Positions 252-40,266 of a DNA stretch of 45,004 bases are shown here, in pieces. Under the pieces are notes generated by a model, which saw only the letters and a list, made by a program, of their open reading frames with translations, was not told the DNA's origin and ran no database searches. The translations under genes and the position numbers were made by a program. Numbering within the stretch: position 1 is the stretch's first letter; every line of letters begins with the position of its first letter. This stretch comes from a virus, in IMG/VR virus record IMGVR_UViG_3300045988_058230, positions 1 through 45,004 of that record; one strand, given 5' to 3'.

Positions 252-387
252 GCCGTCATAGCTCAATTGGCAGAGCGCCGTCCATTTAAGGCGGGACAAC
301 GTTGGTGACACCACGGGAACATCACTGCACAGCCAACCACTGCGCACATCCATTCCGTGGGTGCTGGTTCAAATCCAGCTGGCGGCA
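252..387 (+). tRNA. Non-canonical tRNA-like gene (136 nt). Acceptor, D and T arms are perfect. The anticodon loop is CATTTAA (UUU/Lys-like, but A at position 33). A 68-nt structured insertion replaces the variable loop.
   Basis: Acceptor GCCGTCA/TGGCGGC (7 bp, one G-U pair); D arm GCTC-AATTGGCA-GAGC; anticodon stem CCGTC/GGCGG; T arm GCTGG-TTCAAAT-CCAGC. Positions 295..362 fold into a two-segment hairpin, with pairing roughly 309-319 to 353-361 and 326-332 to 340-346. Confidence 0.55.
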
Positions 388-27762: not shown

Positions 27763-28896
27763 TCAGTACTTCATCTTCTGCATTTCCTGCAACAAATAGG
27801 CTGGATCGTTGTGGGACACGTACTTGTTTGCCGTGGTGGAGAAATTTTTGTGCCCAAGGATGGCCTGCACGGCGGTCTTTTCTAAGCCGCACTCCACCAT
27901 CTTGCTACTGGCCGTGTGGCGCAGCGTGTGTGGATGCACCCCCTCTATGTGGCATTCCTGCATCAACGCCCGGAACTTTGTAGCCACGTTGCGCTTATCC
28001 AGCTTTGTGCCGGTCTTGGATGGAATCAGCCACTCACAGCCGCTATCAAGCATCCAAAAGGCAATGATCTTGTAAATGGGCTCAAGGATGGGGATGATGC
28101 GGTTCTTGCCTGCTTCTGTCTTTTCACCGCCCTGCATGTACCGCTCTTTCAGGTGCACATCCTCGCAGCGCATGGAAAGCAGCTCGTCAATGCGCATACC
28201 GGTATAAAGCAGCACCATTGCAATTTGCGCCGTCTGCCCAAACTTCGGGTCATTTTGTCGGCTGCTGATCCGCTCGATCTCTTGGGCGGTCAGGGTGCGC
28301 TCTTCTTTTCCTGTAGCCGCCGGGAGCTGCAGTAGCATGGCGTAATTTTTGTTTATAATGTCCTGCGCCATTGCCCACTCGCAGATCTGGCTGAAAAGTG
28401 TGCGCTGCTTTTCGCAGGAGCTGCGGGAAAGTCCCTTTTCCACCATTGCGTCAATGACCTGTTGATAATCTGCCGCTTTTAAGTCCCGCAATTGTCGGTC
28501 GTATAGCGGAACAGCCTTTGCATAGGCCAGCTCGTACCCCTTTTGCATGTCCGTGCTGAGCTTGTCAAATTTGGGCTGCGCTTTCCATTTGGCATAGGCA
28601 TCCGCAAAGGTGCATTTCAGACGCGCTGCGGGCGTGTTCTGGGCGTTGTAAGCGTCCAGCGCTTGTACGGCTTCGCCTGCCGTTTCAAACGTCCCCAGAA
28701 CGTCCCTTTGGGCTGTAAGCGCCACATACGGTCTTGCCCGCGTCCCACTCAGTTTATACACGCTGCCGCTGCCCTTGGGACGGCGGCGCTTTTTTCTTTG
28801 CTGCGGGGCGGCTTCCGGCTGCTTCTTCCCGCACCACGGACAAAAAGAAGCACCATCCGGGATCTCTTTCCTGCAGCATGGTCTCACGCATTTCAT
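27763..28896 (-). CDS. int: Tyrosine integrase with an N-terminal zinc ribbon.
   Basis: 377 aa. It begins MKCVRPCCRKEIPDGASFCPWCGKK and carries catalytic-type motifs TGMRIDELL, HTLRHTASS, LGH and NKYVSH (Tyr). Confidence 0.9.
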   Translation of the reverse strand: MKCVRPCCRKEIPDGASFCPWCGKKQPEAAPQQRKKRRRPKGSGSVYKLSGTRARPYVALTAQRDVLGTFETAGEAVQALDAYNAQNTPAARLKCTFADAYAKWKAQPKFDKLSTDMQKGYELAYAKAVPLYDRQLRDLKAADYQQVIDAMVEKGLSRSSCEKQRTLFSQICEWAMAQDIINKNYAMLLQLPAATGKEERTLTAQEIERISSRQNDPKFGQTAQIAMVLLYTGMRIDELLSMRCEDVHLKERYMQGGEKTEAGKNRIIPILEPIYKIIAFWMLDSGCEWLIPSKTGTKLDKRNVATKFRALMQECHIEGVHPHTLRHTASSKMVECGLEKTAVQAILGHKNFSTTANKYVSHNDPAYLLQEMQKMKY

Positions 28897-28899
28897 GGC

Positions 28900-29487
28900 T
28901 TACTCCTTTTTCTGCCCGATATATCCAAAGGCACCATTTTCAGCAGCGGCCCTTCCGGCCTTGTAGTTGATCTTCAGGTCGTCAATGGGAGGTTGCGGAT
29001 CGTCCGGGCATGGGTCAAGGCCCGCGATCTGCGCATAGGTATACTGGTCTATGATGGTCCCGCATACACTGGCCCTGTTGTTGAGTGGGCAGTGCAGGTT
29101 TGCAGCTATCTCCGATATGACAGCAGGCGGGCTGCTGCCGTGACTGCCCTTCAGTATGAAGAGAAGCAGCTTTTTCGTCAGTGGCGGCAAGTTTACCACG
29201 AGACGGCGCAGCTCCGCGTTTAGCTCATCGTCGGCCTTGCCGTCATCCGGCACTTTGTACAGATCCGGGTGGATCATCTCCATGAACATAGATATGGGCG
29301 ACACGCCACACGCCGTGCACCAGTCCATGATCTCGTCACTGTCCGGGCTGGTGCAGCCTTTTTCCCAGCTCTGCACGGTGCGCTCTCCTTTTTCGATGCG
29401 CCTTGCGATCTCCGCTTGGCTCAGGCCAGCAGACACCCGTGCTTTTGCAAGTGCTTTCCCGATTTGGCTCGCCGTAAAATAACTCAT
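28900..29487 (-). CDS. XRE-family HTH repressor-like protein with a C-terminal domain.
   Basis: ORF trimmed to the ATG at 29487 behind GGGGGTGAAAG. HTH stretch: LSQAEIARRIEKGERTVQSWEKG. It is coupled to int. Confidence 0.75.
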   Translation of the reverse strand: MSYFTASQIGKALAKARVSAGLSQAEIARRIEKGERTVQSWEKGCTSPDSDEIMDWCTACGVSPISMFMEMIHPDLYKVPDDGKADDELNAELRRLVVNLPPLTKKLLLFILKGSHGSSPPAVISEIAANLHCPLNNRASVCGTIIDQYTYAQIAGLDPCPDDPQPPIDDLKINYKAGRAAAENGAFGYIGQKKE

Positions 29488-29525
29488 ACTTTCACCCCCA
29501 TAAAACCAGTGTGTTTTTAACAAAA

Positions 29526-29552
29526 AATGGCGCAGACTTTTTCTGCGCCATT
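29526..29552. promoter_or_regulatory. Perfect 11-bp inverted repeat (AATGGCGCAGA-CTTTT-TCTGCGCCATT) in the divergent control region.
   Basis: Read directly. It could be an operator or a bidirectional hairpin. Confidence 0.5.
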
Positions 29553-29645
29553 CGACAAATTTTATCCGTATTTTGTTTTCCAACGGCGCATGGTAAAATC
29601 TGGATTATAAATCGTAGATGTGCACAAAAGAAAGGAGAAAACAAA

Positions 29646-32604: not shown

Positions 32605-32806
32605 GCCCGAACCGTGGACTGGCCGTCTGATTGGCCGGATGCACAACAACCAGATTACAGTAGACGACGTAGCAAAGCATCTTGGATTTTCGAGAAGCTA
32701 CTGTTCACTGATTTTGAACAGCAAGCGCAATCCTCCCGGCATTCGGGAAAAGATGGAAACTGCCGTCAGCGAGATCATCAAGGAAAAGGAGGACAAAACG
32801 GCATGA
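32597..32806 (+). CDS. Small HTH protein.
   Basis: 69 aa containing ITVDDVAKHLGFSRSYCSLILNSKR. Confidence 0.55.
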   Translation: MIKPEPWTGRLIGRMHNNQITVDDVAKHLGFSRSYCSLILNSKRNPPGIREKMETAVSEIIKEKEDKTA

Positions 32807-33627
32807 GCGAATTAAACAATCTCATCCCCATTAGCTACGATAACCCGGAGCGCCCCACGGTGAGCGGCCGGGAGCTGCACGAGTTTTTGCAGGTTGGCGC
32901 AGATTACCGGCATTGGTTTCCTCGTATGTGTGAGTACGGCTTTACCGAGGGCGAGGATTTCAACCCGGTCAAAATTGACCGAGTTCAAAATGAGGGCGGG
33001 CGCAAGGTCACGCGCACGGTGGACGATCACCAGCTCACCATCCCGATGGCGAAGGAGCTGTGCATGATCCAGCGCAACGAGCGTGGCAAGCAGGCGCGGC
33101 AATATTTTCTGGCTGTGGAGGCGCAATGGAACAGCCCGGAAGCGGTCATGCGCCGTGCGGTGCTTATCGCCCAGAAGCAGAACGACCAGCTCAAGGCTGC
33201 CAACCGCCAGCTTCTGGCAGAGAACAGCGACCTGAAGCCGGATGCAGAGTATGCCCGGGCGGTGTGCGTGGGCAAGAACTGCCGCACCACTACCACCCTT
33301 GCCAAGGATTACGGCCTGAGCGCCGAGAAACTCAACAGCATCCTTCACGGCCTGAAGATCCAGTACAAGACCAGCGACGGCCAGTGGGTGCTATACGCCA
33401 AGTATTGCGGCAAGGGTTACACCAAAAACCGCAAATCCACGCCGTTCCAGCACAAGAGCACCGGCGAGTGGGACACTAAGAACACCACCGTATGGACGGA
33501 AGCCGGACAGCGCTTTATCTATGAGCAGCTCAAGGCCATAGGAATGCTGCCCAGCGTGGAGCGCAGGCAGAGCGTGGAGCAGATGGAGCTTGCCGCCCAG
33601 CAGAACAACCAGGACGGGGTGGCGTAA
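32803..33627 (+). CDS. Antirepressor (AntA/Bro-like N-terminal domain plus KilAC-like C-terminal domain).
   Basis: ATG at 32803. The N-terminal region reads VSGRELHEFLQVGADYRHWFPRMCEYGFTEGEDF and the C-terminal region TTTLAKDYGLSAEKLNSILHGLKIQYK. Confidence 0.8.
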   Translation: MSELNNLIPISYDNPERPTVSGRELHEFLQVGADYRHWFPRMCEYGFTEGEDFNPVKIDRVQNEGGRKVTRTVDDHQLTIPMAKELCMIQRNERGKQARQYFLAVEAQWNSPEAVMRRAVLIAQKQNDQLKAANRQLLAENSDLKPDAEYARAVCVGKNCRTTTTLAKDYGLSAEKLNSILHGLKIQYKTSDGQWVLYAKYCGKGYTKNRKSTPFQHKSTGEWDTKNTTVWTEAGQRFIYEQLKAIGMLPSVERRQSVEQMELAAQQNNQDGVA

Positions 33628-33652
33628 GCAATATATTTTGGAGGTTACTATT

Positions 33653-34285
33653 ATGAAAAAACTGCATGTGAAAGCTACGTTTATTGAGCCGGTGCTGGGC
33701 ACATGGCCTGCAAACCCCAATGTTGCCCGGGAGTTCATCGCCAGCAAGTCGCCGGATGCTGCAACCATCGAGGATGAAGTGGCGGCTCTTGGCCCCGATG
33801 CGGTAGCCGACAAGGGCATGACCGTTTTCCCGCGTGACCCGGACGGCAATCCGATTTTTTACGATTACCAGATCAAAGGCATGTTTAAGGATGCTTGCGG
33901 CATGCTTTCCCGCATCGGCGGAAAGACCGAAACGGGAAAGAAGCGGGCTGCGAACGAAAGCGGCAAGCTGACCGCTTACAAGAAGGTCATTGACGGTCTG
34001 ATCTTCGTTCAGCCCCGCATGATCCCTATTCATGTGAACGGTGAGATTACCGACTGCCAGCGCCCTCTCCGCGCCCAGACCGCGCAGGGCGAGCGCGTAA
34101 GCCTTGTCAACAGTGAGGAGATCCCCGCTGGTTCGACCTGCGAGTTTGAGGTCATGCTGCTGGACGATTCTCACGAGAAGGTCGTGCGTGAGTGGCTGGA
34201 CTACGGTGCTCTGCGCGGCATCGGCCAATGGCGCAACAGCGGCAAAGGCCGGTTTACCTACATCGCCTATGAGGTGAATGCCTGA
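33653..34285 (+). CDS. Hypothetical protein with a C-terminal glycine-rich loop, GIGQWRNSGKGRF.
   Basis: ATG at 33653 behind GGAGG; 210 aa. It ends at a TGA that is followed in-frame by 102 sense codons. Confidence 0.7.
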   Translation: MKKLHVKATFIEPVLGTWPANPNVAREFIASKSPDAATIEDEVAALGPDAVADKGMTVFPRDPDGNPIFYDYQIKGMFKDACGMLSRIGGKTETGKKRAANESGKLTAYKKVIDGLIFVQPRMIPIHVNGEITDCQRPLRAQTAQGERVSLVNSEEIPAGSTCEFEVMLLDDSHEKVVREWLDYGALRGIGQWRNSGKGRFTYIAYEVNA

Positions 34286-34749
34286 GAGCAAGGGCATGGC
34301 ATTGACGGCCCTGATTCGCGGAGGCGGTGCAGCTCGAGGCGTGGCAATGGCAAGGCTGAGTTCGATTGGCCGTGCGATGCTTGGCAAAGGCAAGGCACGG
34401 CGGTGCAAAGCAAAGGCTATGAGGTGAACTGCTGTGCAGTGGCACTGAGAAGCACGGACAGGCAAGGCGAAGGAATGGCAGAGAAAAGCGCTGATGTGAT
34501 TTGCGAAGGAAAAGTGGTGCACCGTAACGATTCGCTGCGGCAAGGCTTTGCTTCGGATGCATTGGCATGGAAGAGAGAAGAAATGCCGTGATTTGCGATG
34601 GAATGGCTTGGCAATGAGCAGCTCGGTTGAGTAGCGCAATGGCTTTGAGAAGCGATGTTTAGCAAAGGCAGTGAAGAGTGAAGCGAGGAAGTGCAGAGAA
34701 CTGCGACGGCACAGCAAAGAAAAGACATTTTATTAAACATTTTATTAAA
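34286..34749 (+). repeat. Non-coding, purine-skewed field of degenerate repeats (GGCAA[G/T/A]GGC, CAANGGCTNTGAG, GTGATTTGCGA[A/T]GGAA x2). It ends in an exact 12-bp AT-rich tandem duplication.
   Basis: Read directly. GTGATTTGCGA..GGAA occurs at 34496 and 34588; CTATGAGGTGAA at 34268 and 34418; CATTTTATTAAA occurs twice at 34726..34749. Confidence 0.6.
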
Positions 34750-34762
34750 AGGAGAAACGAGC

Positions 34763-35005
34763 ATGAAAAAAATTATTGTTGGCGTAGCGTCCGTATTGGC
34801 AAGCGCTTTGCTGATGGCCGGATGCAATAAGCAGGTTATTGACCTGACCTATGAATACAACTGGGCACAGCTGAAAATGCCCGACGGAACGATTGTCGAG
34901 GGCAATGTCGAAAGCTGGTGCGACTATGAAGGCGACCAGCTTCAGGTTGTGATTGACGGTGTGACCTATCTGGTTCATTCGTCCAACATTGTTATGCGTC
35001 ATTGA
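34763..35005 (+). CDS. Small lipoprotein.
   Basis: ATG at 34763 behind AAAGGAG. Signal and lipobox: MKKIIVGVASVLASALLMAGC. 80 aa. Confidence 0.75.
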   Translation: MKKIIVGVASVLASALLMAGCNKQVIDLTYEYNWAQLKMPDGTIVEGNVESWCDYEGDQLQVVIDGVTYLVHSSNIVMRH

Positions 35006-35567: not shown

Positions 35568-36299
35568 ATGAGTGAGAAGGTCATCGCCTACAAGGCCATG
35601 GATAAAAATATGAAGTGCCGTGGCAAGCAGTACGAGGTGGGCAAGACCTACACAGAGCCGGAGGCGGACTGCTGCCACGCTGGTATGCATGCCTGCGAGA
35701 ACCCGCTGGATGTGCTGCACTACTACCCGCTGAAGAATAGCCCGCGCTTTTTTGAGGTCGAGTGCGGCGGGAACGTGGATAAAAGCGGAGAGGACAGTAA
35801 ACTGGCCTGCACTGAGCTGACGGTAAAAGGTGAGGTGAATTTTGCAGGGCTGGTAAAAGCTGCGGTGAATGCCGTTTTTAATCGGGTGAAGGGCAAAGAA
35901 CCTTTTTCCAGCGGCTATTGCAGCACGGCGGGGTCCAGCGGCAATTCCAGCACGGCAGGTTCCAGCGGCAATTCCAGCACGGCGGGGTCCAGCGGCGATT
36001 ACAGCACGGCTGGTTCGAGCGGCGATTACAGCACGGCGGGGTCCAGCGGCGATTACAGCACGGCAGCAGCCACTGGGGATTATTGCAGCGCAAAAGCAGA
36101 CGGAAAAGATAGCATTGCCGTTGTAAACGGTGCTTGCGGTAAGGCATGCGGCGCAATGGGATGCTATCTGGTGCTGACCGAGTACGATGATGACGGCCAC
36201 ATGATCTGTGCCAAAATGGCCCGCATGGACGGTTCTGCCATCAGAGAAAACGTTTACTATACCCTCAAAAATGGCGAGTTTGTGGAGGCTGAGCCGTGA
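35568..36299 (+). CDS. Cys/His-rich N-terminal domain protein with six nonapeptide repeats, STAGSSG[N/D][S/Y].
   Basis: 243 aa. The N-terminal region reads KCRGKQYEVGKTYTEPEADCCHAGMHACENPLDVLHYY. The repeats correspond to the 27-bp DNA tandem array. Confidence 0.75.
   Translation: MSEKVIAYKAMDKNMKCRGKQYEVGKTYTEPEADCCHAGMHACENPLDVLHYYPLKNSPRFFEVECGGNVDKSGEDSKLACTELTVKGEVNFAGLVKAAVNAVFNRVKGKEPFSSGYCSTAGSSGNSSTAGSSGNSSTAGSSGDYSTAGSSGDYSTAGSSGDYSTAAATGDYCSAKADGKDSIAVVNGACGKACGAMGCYLVLTEYDDDGHMICAKMARMDGSAIRENVYYTLKNGEFVEAEP
35922..36083 (+). repeat. 27-bp tandem repeat x6 (coding, in frame).
   Basis: Units begin at 35922, 35949, 35976, 36003, 36030 and 36057 (AGCACGGCGGGGTCCAGCGGC[A/G]ATT[C/A]C and variants). 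Confidence 0.9.
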
Positions 36300-39486: not shown

Positions 39487-40266
39487 GTGGCAAAAGAAGA
39501 AAAAAAGTCGTTTGTCGTGTATCTGGATTGGTTCGACGCGCTGGAGGAGTACACGGATGCCGAAGTCGGACAGCTGATGCGAGCTTTGGCGAAACACGTC
39601 CGCACCGGTGAAAATCCAACGTTTTCCGACCGCGGAATGCGTGGGAACTTCCGTTTTATGTGCAATGGAGTGGATTCGGCTGCGGAAAAGTACGAGAACG
39701 TCAAGCAAAAGCGCCGTGAAGCCGGAAAAGCCCGTGCTGCTCAAATGAAAGCAAGTTCAGCAAATGCTAGCACATGCTACCAAGTGCAAGCAAGTGGTAA
39801 CTATAATGATACTGTTACTGTTACTGGTACTGGAACTGTTACTGGTACTGGAACTGTTACTGGTACTGGAACTGTTATATCCCCTAACGGGGATATATAT
39901 AATAGCTCCGCCAAAGCCGCCGTTGACGTAGAACTTTCCAAGATCGTCCAGCATTATCAGCAAGCCGTCGGAGACTTCCCACGCTCTGCACTGGACAAGC
40001 TGCAGAAGTGGAGGCAGGAGTACAGCACAGAGATGATCCTGCTGGCAATCGACAAGGCCACAGAAGCCGGAAAGCGCTCGTGGAGCTACATCAACGGAAT
40101 ATTGTCCGGATGGAAACGAGACGGCCTGCGCACGCCGGGAGACGTGGAAGCCAACGAACAAAGCCGACAATCCAGACCGAGGAGCAAGCAGCCAACCGAG
40201 ACCGTAGACGACCAGCTTGCCCGGGTGCTGGCGAAGATGGACAGAGAAAGAGGGTTTGAGACATGA
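39487..40266 (+). CDS. Replisome organizer (DnaD/DnaB_2-domain-like).
   Basis: GTG at 39487 behind AAGGAGGTG. The C-terminal region reads AGKRSWSYINGILSGWKRDGLRTPGDV. The internal linker TVTVTGTGTVTGTGTVTGTGTV is encoded by an 18-bp tandem repeat. Confidence 0.7.
   Translation: MAKEEKKSFVVYLDWFDALEEYTDAEVGQLMRALAKHVRTGENPTFSDRGMRGNFRFMCNGVDSAAEKYENVKQKRREAGKARAAQMKASSANASTCYQVQASGNYNDTVTVTGTGTVTGTGTVTGTGTVISPNGDIYNSSAKAAVDVELSKIVQHYQQAVGDFPRSALDKLQKWRQEYSTEMILLAIDKATEAGKRSWSYINGILSGWKRDGLRTPGDVEANEQSRQSRPRSKQPTETVDDQLARVLAKMDRERGFET
39811..39876 (+). repeat. 18-bp tandem repeat (ACTGGTACTGGAACTGTT x3, plus a partial leading unit), coding a Thr/Gly/Val linker.
   Basis: Units lie at 39823, 39841 and 39859. 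The repeat is AT-rich relative to the rest of the gene. Confidence 0.9.

What the first reader, a model, noticed from the sequence alone, without database searches (positions are those of the whole stretch)
34286..34749. 460-bp purine-skewed non-coding field of degenerate iteron-like repeats ending in an AT-rich tandem duplication
No credible ORF fits this region. The plus strand is G/A-rich, so much so that the minus strand has no stop for 1.2 kb, which creates the spurious 395-aa ORF. The field contains these repeat families:
- GGCAA[T/A/G]GGC-type motifs, at least seven copies
- CAANGGCTNTGAG motifs at about 34351, 34411, 34540 and 34637
- GTGATTTGCGA[A/T]GGAA twice, 92 bp apart
- an exact CATTTTATTAAA tandem duplication at 34726..34749
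Iterons plus an AT-rich unwinding element is the classic architecture of a replication origin. Alternatives are a protein-sequestering array, a structured ncRNA, or a substrate for the upstream protein.
Basis: partly seen in the sequence, partly recalled or inferred. Interest (0 to 1): 0.65.

Follow-up and report, generated by a model that had tools for sequence, protein, structure and literature searches.

The report
Phage VIPR guide-RNA repeat array
The 460-bp "iteron field" is not a replication origin: it is the five-base-repeat guide-RNA array of a VIPR system, lying directly behind the gene for its small Cas7-like partner protein, a phage-borne RNA-guided DNA-recognition system first described in 2026 preprints.

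Summary
The region is real, non-coding and purine-rich. Its organising feature is not iterons. It is a phase-coherent 5.14-nt lattice of about 88 units with consensus n-G-C/Y-N-N (spectral power 14, against at most 3.9 in 300 shuffles). This lattice occurs nowhere else in the 45-kb window and is confined to about 34287-34727.

The gene immediately upstream (33653-34285, 210 aa, no Pfam or PHROG hit) folds with high confidence (pLDDT 92.8) as a single-domain RAMP. Its best structural matches are Cas7 and Csm3. A family profile aligns end to end with the experimentally characterised Vipr protein of coliphage SUSP1 (hhalign E 1e-5), including the G-loop Trp-Arg pair.

Gene and lattice travel together. 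Of 199 loci fetched for homologues down to about 46% identity, 182 have a same-strand array directly downstream (163) or upstream (19).

This matches the VIPR systems described in bioRxiv 10.64898/2026.04.26.720920 and .720927. There, Vipr protomers polymerise on pentanucleotide-repeat vrRNAs, and the variable bases read double-stranded DNA.

Features particular to this clade:
- Only G2 and Y3 are conserved (a "YNNNG" consensus).
- A 6-nt GCRAN unit occurs every 5-7 units.
- No structured tail is evident.
- No conserved accessory gene is present.

I found no natural targets. The origin reading is rejected.

The parts
33653..34285 (+). vipr gene: a 210-aa stand-alone RAMP (Cas7-like) protein with an RRM core, a helical bundle (about residues 22-52), a beta-hairpin thumb (about 133-157) and the C-terminal G-loop GIGQWRNSGKGRF (189-201).
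   Evidence: No Pfam, PHROG, PADLOC or NCBIfam hit. AF2 pLDDT 92.8. Foldseek top hits are type VII Cas7, Csm3 and Cas7-11, E 2e-9, probability 1.0. hhalign against SUSP1 Vipr gives E 9.8e-6 over 175 columns. W193 and R194 are nearly invariant across the family.
34287..34727 (+). vrRNA array: about 88 tandem units (74 pentamers, 14 hexamers, 3 tetramers) with consensus n-G-C/Y-N-N, forming a continuous lattice of period 5.14 nt.
   Evidence: Spectral and autocorrelation analysis, phase profile and segmentation. The conserved G2/Y3 positions change at 2.2% and 4.9%, against 8.7-10.1% at the other positions among relatives. The array co-occurs with vipr in 182 of 199 loci.
34286..34322 (+). Conserved 5' island of the array (blocks 1-2), starting immediately after the vipr stop codon.
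   Evidence: Identical block 2 occurs in 61 arrays. The island is 95-100% identical across relatives whose neighbouring blocks differ.
34415..34440 (+). Conserved block 6 (GGCTATGAGGTGAACTGCTGTGCAGT), an anchor between two hypervariable zones. It contains the 12-mer CTATGAGGTGAA, which is also found at the 3' end of vipr (34267-34278).
   Evidence: Present unchanged in 81 of 163 arrays. Repeat D8. Conservation.
34472..34538 (+). Conserved blocks 8-9. Block 8 is paralogous to block 11 (34563-34598), and both end in GTGATTTGCGAw. They may be invariant handle or tail segments, or conserved guides.
   Evidence: Repeat family D1. Found in 49 and 33 arrays respectively. 94-100% identity among relatives.
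34343..34348 (+). Example of the 6-nt 'punctuation' unit (nGC-R-A-N followed by GGC or GGA). The 14 such units start at 34287, 34317, 34343, 34383, 34409, 34435, 34466, 34502, 34533, 34558, 34594, 34635, 34661 and 34702.
   Evidence: Segmentation. Across 163 arrays the hexamers are spaced 5-7 units apart (mode 6) and have their own consensus: C3 91%, R4 91%, A5 73%.
34725..34748 (+). AT-rich tandem duplication ACATTTTATTAA x2 at the 3' edge of the array, directly before the ribosome-binding site (AAGGAG) and ATG (34763) of the next gene.
   Evidence: Some relatives carry one copy and others two.

Best explanation
This is a VIPR (Viral Interference Programmable Repeat) locus in a temperate Faecalibacterium phage. 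It consists of the vipr gene (33653-34285) and, directly behind it on the same strand, its vrRNA array (about 34287-34727).

Mechanism shown for the SUSP1 system in the two 2026 preprints, and inferred here by homology:
1. The array is transcribed, here probably together with vipr, since no terminator separates them.
2. One Vipr protomer binds each roughly 5-nt unit.
3. The thumb and G-loop flip out and hold the conserved G-Y core, with the Trp stacking on G and the Arg on the pyrimidine. This builds a helical filament that presents the variable bases of every unit.
4. Those bases pair discontinuously with double-stranded DNA, skipping one target base per unit in SUSP1.
5. The complex silences transcription of the bound gene, typically in a competing phage or satellite.

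Particular to this clade (shown here):
- Only G2 and Y3 are conserved, and the first position is free (a 'YNNNG' consensus).
- A 6-nt GCRAN unit is inserted every 5-7 units, which gives the 36/7-nt period.
- Arrays are long and continuous (29-144 units).
- Arrays are mosaics of conserved anchor blocks and hypervariable cassettes.
- No accessory (vap) gene is conserved next to them.
For: Protein:
- High-confidence RAMP fold. The best PDB matches are Cas7 and Csm3.
- The family profile aligns collinearly with SUSP1 Vipr at E 9.8e-6.
- The G-loop QWR (192-194) aligns with SUSP1 D177-W178-R179, and W and R are nearly invariant in the family. The preprint assigns these residues to G2 stacking and Y3 contact.

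RNA or DNA array:
- The 5.14-nt lattice is far above chance and unique in the window.
- The unit n-G-C/Y-N-N has G2 at 97% across 14,000 units.
- Among close relatives, substitutions avoid G2 (2.2%) and Y3 (4.9%) and fall on the other positions (8.7-10.1%). This is the conserved-core, hypervariable-position signature of vrRNAs.

Linkage:
- 163 of 199 family loci have the array directly downstream, and 19 more have it directly upstream on the same strand, down to about 46% protein identity.
- The other flanking genes are not conserved.

Context and controls:
- The locus sits in the prophage early region, beside the integrase, repressor and antirepressor genes.
- The host is Faecalibacterium.
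- The same periodicity method applied to the published SUSP1 vrRNA tracts gives period 5.0.
- The system is described.
Against: - There are no expression or binding data for this locus.
- The published type II vrRNAs are about 100 nt: 9-16 strict YNNGG units followed by a structured tail. Here the lattice runs unbroken for about 440 nt, the first G is present in only 41% of units, and no tail, hammerhead or other Rfam element is evident.
- The two SUSP1 residues that read G1 (H17, D177) are T17 and Q192 here.
- No natural target was found with the published 1-nt-skip rule or with seven alternative rules in 1.67 Mb of related phage DNA. Three IMG/VR pattern scans also found none.
- No vap gene is present.
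- I could not see the preprint's figures or data tables, so I could not confirm that this clade or its type is among the 667 catalogued systems.
Confidence: 0.9

Rival explanations
1. Replication origin: the degenerate repeats are iterons bound by an initiator (for example the DnaD-like protein), and the AT-rich duplication is the unwinding element.
For: The region is non-coding, rich in repeats and ends in an AT-rich stretch. It lies in the early region of the phage.
Against: - The repeat unit is 5 nt, not iteron-sized, and is strand-asymmetric.
- The field co-varies in position with the RAMP gene, not with any replication gene, across 182 loci.
- The neighbouring genes are otherwise unconserved.
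- The AT-rich duplication is present in one or two copies among close relatives.
- There is no GC-skew inflection.
- Conventional exact tandem repeats lie inside the DnaD-like gene instead.
Confidence: 0.03
2. Decoy or sponge ribonucleoprotein: the phage Cas7-like protein and the repeat RNA act as an anti-CRISPR or anti-defence decoy, for example by soaking up host Cas or RNA-binding proteins, rather than as a DNA-targeting guide.
For: - Phages are known to encode cas-gene homologues and repeat-like RNAs that act as anti-CRISPRs (titles and abstracts listed: PMC10651486 and 10.1101/2023.06.24.545427).
- No targets were found for the array.
- The array is far longer than the published guides.
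Against: - The variable positions evolve four times faster than the G core, and arrays are mosaics of hypervariable cassettes. That is expected for information-carrying guides, not for a generic sponge.
- The protein is homologous to a Vipr shown experimentally to guide DNA binding.
- The lattice period (5.14) does not match the 6-nt period of host Cas7 backbones.
Confidence: 0.04
3. Independent structured non-coding RNA, or a cis-regulatory leader for the downstream lipoprotein-like gene.
For: Long intergenic region in the sense orientation, just upstream of a ribosome-binding site.
Against: - Folding energy is no better than that of shuffles on either strand: z 0.02 and 0.76.
- No Rfam family matches.
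- The downstream gene is not conserved with the array. It is absent from all family loci with under 90% vipr identity.
Confidence: 0.02
4. Functionless, slippage-generated degenerate microsatellite, or a decayed or hidden coding sequence.
For: Many indels and length variation (369-605 nt) among close relatives. Several 30-100-codon open frames exist.
Against: - Long-range phase coherence is preserved in all 40 distinct close relatives and across clades with unrelated array sequence.
- There is position-specific constraint on G2 and Y3.
- There is no 3-nt periodicity, and open frames shift between relatives.
Confidence: 0.01

Closest known systems
VIPR systems, type II prototype (Escherichia phage SUSP1 and Pseudomonas fulva prophage); bioRxiv 10.64898/2026.04.26.720920 and 10.64898/2026.04.26.720927
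   Same: - A small, stand-alone, single-RRM RAMP with a thumb, helical bundle and G-loop containing W-R.
- Encoded by a phage or prophage.
- Flanked on the same strand by a long intergenic tract of tandem pentanucleotide units, with a conserved G-pyrimidine core and hypervariable remaining positions.
- No cas genes and no CRISPR array.
   Different: - SUSP1 has separate vrRNAs of about 100 nt, with 9-16 strict YNNGG units (period 5.0), each capped by a pseudoknotted tail, plus a vap1 gene.
- Here there is one continuous lattice of about 88 units with a 6-nt unit every 5-7 units (period 5.14).
- The first G is not conserved, and its SUSP1 contacts H17 and D177 are T and Q here.
- No tail is evident and no vap gene is conserved.
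- Natural targets are undetermined.
- Protein identity to SUSP1 Vipr is only about 28% over the profile alignment.
Class 1 CRISPR Cas7 (Csm3, Cmr4, type VII Cas7) backbone filaments on crRNA
   Same: Same fold (best Foldseek hits). Same principle of one protomer per short RNA segment, with a thumb breaking the guide at regular intervals.
   Different: - Cas7 segments are 6 nt, and the guide is a contiguous spacer flanked by repeat-derived handles.
- Cas7 needs Cas5, Cas6, Cas10 or Cas8 partners and a repeat-spacer array. None of these is present within the window neighbourhood.
- Here the repeat is inside the guide and sequence-specific.
Iteron-type replication origins of phages and plasmids (for example lambda ori inside gene O)
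   Same: Non-coding or repeat-rich DNA with a nearby AT-rich stretch in the early region.
   Different: - Iterons are 17-22 bp and phased with the DNA helix.
- They are bound by an adjacent initiator and are not strand-asymmetric.
- None of these features holds here. See the membership test.

Membership tests
VIPR system | Vipr protein: small (about 20 kDa) stand-alone RAMP with an RRM core, thumb and glycine-rich loop, lacking a second RRM. | tested here: met
   210 aa. The AF2 model has pLDDT 92.8, with a beta-hairpin at 133-157, a helical insert at 22-52 and a C-terminal GIGQWRNSGKGRF loop. Foldseek matches Cas7 and Csm3 at E 2e-9, probability 1.0.
VIPR system | Homology to an experimentally characterised Vipr (SUSP1), including the G-loop residues that hold G2 (Trp) and Y3 (Arg). 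| tested here: met
   hhalign of the 80-sequence family profile against SUSP1 Vipr (KT454805.2, 28474-29061, minus strand): probability 82.5%, E 9.8e-6, 175 collinear columns. D177-W178-R179 aligns with Q192-W193-R194. W193 and R194 are at least 90% conserved.
VIPR system | Adjacent same-strand tract of tandem pentanucleotide repeats, with a conserved GGY (or related NNNGG, YNNNG or NNNNG) core alternating with hypervariable bases. | tested here: met
   About 88 units with consensus n-G-C/Y-N-N. Substitution rates among relatives are G2 2.2% and Y3 4.9%, against 8.7-10.1% at the other positions. This is the YNNNG-type consensus, which the preprint lists as an accepted variant. The strict YNNGG form is not met, since G1 is present in only 41% of units.
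VIPR system | The gene and the repeat tract are genomically linked across the family, in phage or prophage genomes, without cas genes or CRISPR arrays. | tested here: met
   182 of 199 loci have an adjacent same-strand array. All are IMG/VR viral contigs or Faecalibacterium MAG prophages. Neighbours here are an integrase, repressor, antirepressor and RecT. PADLOC gives no significant Cas hit (the only match, Cas11d to a 78-aa ORF, has E 0.02).
VIPR system | Discrete vrRNAs of 9-16 repeats, each followed by an invariable structured 3' tail (type II architecture; other types have staggered, ribozyme-separated or single-guide arrays). | tested here: inconclusive
   - The lattice is continuous over about 440 nt.
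- There is no excess folding energy and no ribozyme or Rfam hit.
- Conserved blocks (6, 8-9, 11, 13) alternate with hypervariable blocks and could be handles.
- Structural breakpoints are only weakly enriched at hexamer boundaries, 23% against 17.5% expected.
- This might correspond to the preprint's 'staggered arrays', but that figure is not available.
VIPR system | Accessory vap gene next to vipr (typical but not obligatory: seven types are described with six vap families, and some Viprs are stand-alone). | tested here: not met
   No neighbour is conserved beyond the closest relatives. There are 55 upstream and 58 downstream gene clusters among about 170 loci. The preprint states that stand-alone genes exist, so this does not exclude membership.
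VIPR system | Variable bases match natural DNA targets (competing phages) under the 1-nt-skip code. | tested here: inconclusive
   - There was no excess over reversed-order controls for 2- or 3-base reads with skips of 0-3 and two ways of handling hexamers, in 1.67 Mb of related phage DNA.
- An IMG/VR scan with block 12 gave 38 chance-level environmental hits with no extension.
- Conserved blocks 8+9 gave 0 hits at either spacing.
- These searches were small and exact-match only.
VIPR system | vrRNAs are expressed, processed, and co-purify with Vipr as a helical filament. | not testable with these tools
   This needs small-RNA sequencing, pull-down or cryo-EM.
Iteron-type replication origin | Several direct repeats of about 17-22 bp that serve as initiator binding sites. 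| tested here: not met
   Only a 5-nt lattice, one 40-nt paralogous pair and short chance-level families were found.
Iteron-type replication origin | A conserved AT-rich unwinding element, and linkage to the initiator gene. | tested here: not met
   The AT-rich 12-mer is present in one or two copies among close relatives and overlaps the upstream region of the next gene. The DnaD-like gene is 5 kb away and has its own internal repeats. The field tracks vipr, not replication genes.
Iteron-type replication origin | An inflection in cumulative GC skew at the site. | tested here: not met
   Cumulative skew rises monotonically from about 32 kb to 45 kb. The local high skew simply reflects the G-rich array.
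CRISPR array | Identical 23-50-nt repeats separated by unique spacers of similar length, with cas genes nearby. | tested here: not met
   No such repeat-spacer structure was found, and no cas genes other than the solo RAMP.

The most novel reading that the evidence does not exclude
The Faecalibacterium-phage clade may be a mechanistically distinct VIPR variant rather than a routine member. The evidence that leaves this open:
- There are three free bases per unit (YNNNG), and the G1-reading residues are lost.
- A regularly inserted 6-nt GCRAN unit every 5-7 units locks the array into a 36/7-nt lattice over hundreds of nucleotides.
- There are no tails and no accessory gene.
- No targets are detectable under the published 1-nt-skip code.

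The hexamer spacing (mode 6 units) equals the six protomers per turn reported for the binary Vipr filament. The extra base could therefore be a once-per-turn structural or processing mark, and the read-out rule could differ from that of SUSP1.
Probability: 0.3. Interest if true: 0.6.

Novelty: new member of a known kind. Interest (0 to 1): 0.5.

Why it matters
VIPR is a very recently reported form of RNA-guided DNA recognition, known so far only from preprints. It has been proposed as the ancestor of the CRISPR RAMP proteins.

This locus shows that the system is abundant in temperate phages of Faecalibacterium, a dominant human-gut commensal. The protein search returned more than 8,000 protein clusters at 90% identity and 1,712 representatives at 50% identity. 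That implies widespread RNA-guided conflict between phages in the gut.

The clade-specific features give concrete handles for testing how general the published code is:
- the 36/7-nt lattice with regular 6-nt units
- the YNNNG consensus
- very long arrays with no tails
- the absence of an accessory gene

For genome annotation, long purine-rich "non-coding repeat fields" behind small orphan genes in prophages can be recognised by a simple roughly 5-nt Fourier signal. They should not be called origins.

Tried and rejected
- **Rfam.** Gathering thresholds on the whole window found only tRNAs. A search of the gap at E up to 10 gave only noise.
- **BLASTN.** The gap has no match in INPHARED phages.
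- **RNA folding.** Both strands fold no better than shuffled sequence, so the structured-RNA reading was dropped.
- **Coding potential.** Open frames shift between relatives and there is no 3-nt periodicity, so coding was rejected.
- **Family libraries.** Pfam, PHROGs, PADLOC, NCBIfam and a PDB sequence search gave no hit for the upstream protein. Only structure prediction identified it.
- **Profile-based locus search.** The search for related loci with the diverse alignment failed for lack of a conserved stretch. I replaced it with a degenerate DNA pattern for the G-loop.
- **One distant homologue.** The only contig was 808 bp and uninformative.
- **Target decoding.** Sixteen rule combinations gave no excess over controls in the local database, apart from trivial matches of arrays to unmasked arrays at period 5. 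Three IMG/VR scans gave chance hits or none.
- **Hexamers as cassette boundaries.** Structural breakpoints are only weakly enriched there.
- **Long-range pairing 34430-34444 with 34702-34716.** The partner sequence does not co-vary among relatives.
- **Accessory gene.** No conserved vap-like neighbour was found.
- **Preprint supplementary tables.** They are not held as text, so I could not look up this clade or its type.

Full report
**1. What is there**

The finding lies in a 477-bp gap (34286-34762) between two + strand genes in the early region of a temperate phage. The surrounding genes, in order, are:
- integrase, 27763-28896 (minus strand)
- cI-like repressor, 28900-29583 (minus strand)
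- an AntA/KilAC antirepressor, 32803-33627
- a 210-aa orphan gene, 33653-34285
- the gap
- a small lipoprotein-like ORF, 34763-35005
- then DUF7666, DUF1351, RecT, SSB and a DnaD-like replisome organiser

The host is Faecalibacterium. The + strand of the gap is 64% purine. This explains the stop-free 395-aa ORF on the minus strand (33530-34717), which is spurious because it runs antisense to the orphan gene.

**2. Checking the observation**

- the 92-bp-spaced GTGATTTGCGAwGGAA pair
- the exact ACATTTTATTAA duplication at 34725-34748

The "GGCAA[T/A/G]GGC, at least seven copies" motif is exact only twice in the field and is not above chance window-wide. The looser form GCRANGG[C/A] occurs ten times in the field. 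CAANGGCTNTGAG is exact twice.

The whole field is a lattice with period 5.14 nt (36/7):
- Spectral power is 14.1, against mean 2.5 and maximum 3.9 in 300 shuffles.
- G autocorrelation peaks stay undiminished out to at least lag 128.
- The signal is the strongest of its kind in the 45-kb window and is confined to about 34290-34720.
- The phase profile gives the unit (T/A/G)-G-C-A/N-N.

Dynamic-programming segmentation yields about 88 units: 74 pentamers, 14 hexamers and 3 tetramers.

**3. It is not coding and not a compact RNA**

- Open frames in the gap shift among relatives and there is no 3-nt periodicity.
- Neither strand folds better than shuffled sequence, with z-scores of 0.02 and 0.76.
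- Rfam finds nothing.

**4. The upstream protein**

The 210-aa protein has no hit in Pfam, PHROGs, PADLOC, NCBIfam or PDB sequences. It nevertheless belongs to a very large family. The search returned more than 8,000 clusters at 90% identity in gut metagenomes and 1,712 representatives at 50% identity.

Its C-terminus, GIGQWRNSGKGRF, looked like a RAMP glycine-rich loop. AlphaFold2 on an 80-sequence alignment gave pLDDT 92.8. Foldseek against the PDB returned type VII Cas7, Csm3 and Cas7-11 domains at E 2e-9 and probability 1.0. It is therefore a stand-alone Cas7-like RAMP with a beta-hairpin thumb (about 133-157) and a helical insert (about 22-52).

**5. Gene and lattice are one module**

In 80 close IMG/VR relatives the gap always follows the gene. 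It varies from 369 to 605 nt with many indels, yet every one of 40 distinct versions keeps a 5.12-5.22-nt period.

A degenerate DNA pattern for the G-loop fetched 120 further, more diverse loci, with 46-95% protein identity. Most of these have the same 5.1-5.2-nt signal in the 450 nt downstream, although the array sequences are unrelated.

| Array position relative to the gene | Loci (of 199) |
|---|---|
| Segmentable array directly downstream | 163 |
| Array directly upstream, same strand | 19 |
| Neither (mostly truncated or spurious fragments) | 17 |

No other neighbouring gene is conserved.

**6. Identification**

A literature search found two 2026 preprints from one group. They describe VIPR systems:
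- a phage-encoded, roughly 20-kDa ancestral RAMP (Vipr)
- vrRNAs made of tandem pentanucleotide YNNGG units, with a conserved GGY and hypervariable NN
- one Vipr protomer binding each unit; the thumb and G-loop flip out GGY, with W178 stacking on G2 and R179 contacting Y3
- the NN bases pairing with double-stranded DNA while skipping every third target base
- the resulting complex repressing genes of competing phages
- seven types, with alternative consensus units (NNNGG, YNNNG, NNNNG) and alternative array layouts (staggered, ribozyme-separated, single-guide)

I located the SUSP1 locus (KT454805.2: vipr at 28474-29061, minus strand, flanked by GGTnn tracts). Its tracts give period 5.0 with my method.

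The family profile aligns collinearly with SUSP1 Vipr (hhalign E 9.8e-6, probability 82.5%, 175 columns). SUSP1 D177-W178-R179 falls on Q192-W193-R194, and H17 falls on T17. W193 and R194 are nearly invariant in the family.

**7. Independent test of the vrRNA signature**

Among close relatives, substitutions per aligned site depend on the position within the unit:

| Unit position | Substitution rate |
|---|---|
| 1 | 10.1% |
| 2 (G2) | 2.2% |
| 3 (Y3) | 4.9% |
| 4 | 8.7% |
| 5 | 8.7% |
| extra base of hexamers | 11.4% |

Across 14,000 units, G2 is present in 97%. Position 3 is C 60%, A 29%, T 10%. Position 1 is G in only 41%.

The conserved core here is therefore G-Y with three free positions, the "YNNNG" variant. 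This fits the loss of both SUSP1 residues that hydrogen-bond G1. That last link is my inference.

**8. Clade-specific anatomy**

The non-integer period arises from 6-nt units with consensus nGC-R-A-N, almost always followed by GGC or GGA. They recur every 5-7 units, with mode 6. One relative (L095) carries five tandem copies of a 36-nt, seven-unit block.

Arrays are mosaics. Anchor blocks are shared unchanged by 33-81 arrays: block 2, block 6 at 34415-34440, and blocks 8-9 at 34472-34538. Hypervariable cassettes of varying number lie between them.

Structural breakpoints are only weakly enriched at hexamers. Whether hexamers delimit individual guides is therefore open. Their spacing equals the six protomers per turn of the published binary filament, but this is a coincidence I cannot test.

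The AT-rich 12-mer at the 3' edge occurs once or twice among relatives.

**9. What I could not show**

I found no natural targets.
- I tried two- or three-base reads with skips of 0-3 and two treatments of hexamers. None gave an excess over reversed-order controls in 1.67 Mb of related phage DNA.
- The IMG/VR pattern scans gave only chance hits or none.
- These searches were small and required exact matches.

No tail structure is evident and no vap gene is conserved. Expression cannot be tested here. The preprint's figures and tables were unavailable, so the type assignment is only an inference. It is possibly the vap-less type, since seven types are described with six vap families.

**10. Verdict**

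The origin interpretation is rejected:
- There are no iteron-sized repeats.
- The AT-rich element is polymorphic.
- There is no GC-skew inflection.
- The field is linked to the RAMP gene rather than to replication genes.
- Better repeat candidates lie inside the DnaD-like gene, at 39749-39877.

The locus is a member of the recently described VIPR kind (confidence about 0.9). It has variant features, namely YNNNG units, regular hexamers, a long continuous array and no accessory gene. These leave about a 30% chance that its read-out rule or processing differs from the published prototype.

Noticed in passing
window 39749-39877: Inside the DnaD-like replisome-organiser gene there are an exact 18-bp x3.4 tandem repeat (39817-39877, encoding the TGTGTV repeats) and a 10-bp x4.9 repeat (39749-39796). 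These are a more conventional candidate for the phage origin than the field under study.
   Followed up: partly
window 252-387: Rfam calls a tRNA (46 bits) interrupted by an insert of about 65 nt after the anticodon arm. ARAGORN does not call it. It sits next to an intact tRNA-Trp (57-130). It could be an intron-containing or a disrupted tRNA.
   Followed up: no
window 34267-34278 and 34417-34428: The 12-mer CTATGAGGTGAA at the 3' end of the vipr coding sequence recurs exactly in the most conserved array block (block 6, present in 81 of 163 arrays). It may be a duplication remnant or a functional signal, since it contains a GAGGTGA Shine-Dalgarno-like core.
   Followed up: partly
window 35907-36082: The DUF7666 gene carries 27-bp x6 tandem repeats that encode a Gly/Ser-rich, collagen-like stretch (SSGNSSTAG and similar).
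   Followed up: no
L093, L110, L116, L120, L123, L125, L126, L132, L133, L138, L140, L141, L143, L145, L147, L157, L158, L174, L201: In 19 more distant family members the periodic array lies directly upstream of vipr on the same strand, instead of downstream.
   Followed up: partly
L095, about 258-450 nt after the vipr stop: There are five near-identical tandem copies of a 36-nt block made of seven units (six pentamers plus one hexamer). This is evidence that whole blocks can be duplicated.
   Followed up: partly
L013, L015, L016, L018, L022, L042, L043, L063, L075, L077: In these close relatives the distance from the vipr stop to the lipoprotein-like gene is 1.2-1.5 kb rather than about 0.45 kb. 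This implies an extra insertion of about 800 bp after the array, probably a gene.
   Followed up: no
window 34430-34444 and 34702-34716: A 15-nt inverted repeat (87% complementary) brackets 257 nt of the array. The 3' arm is mutated without compensation in many relatives (26 of 43 keep it), so a conserved long-range helix is unlikely.
   Followed up: yes
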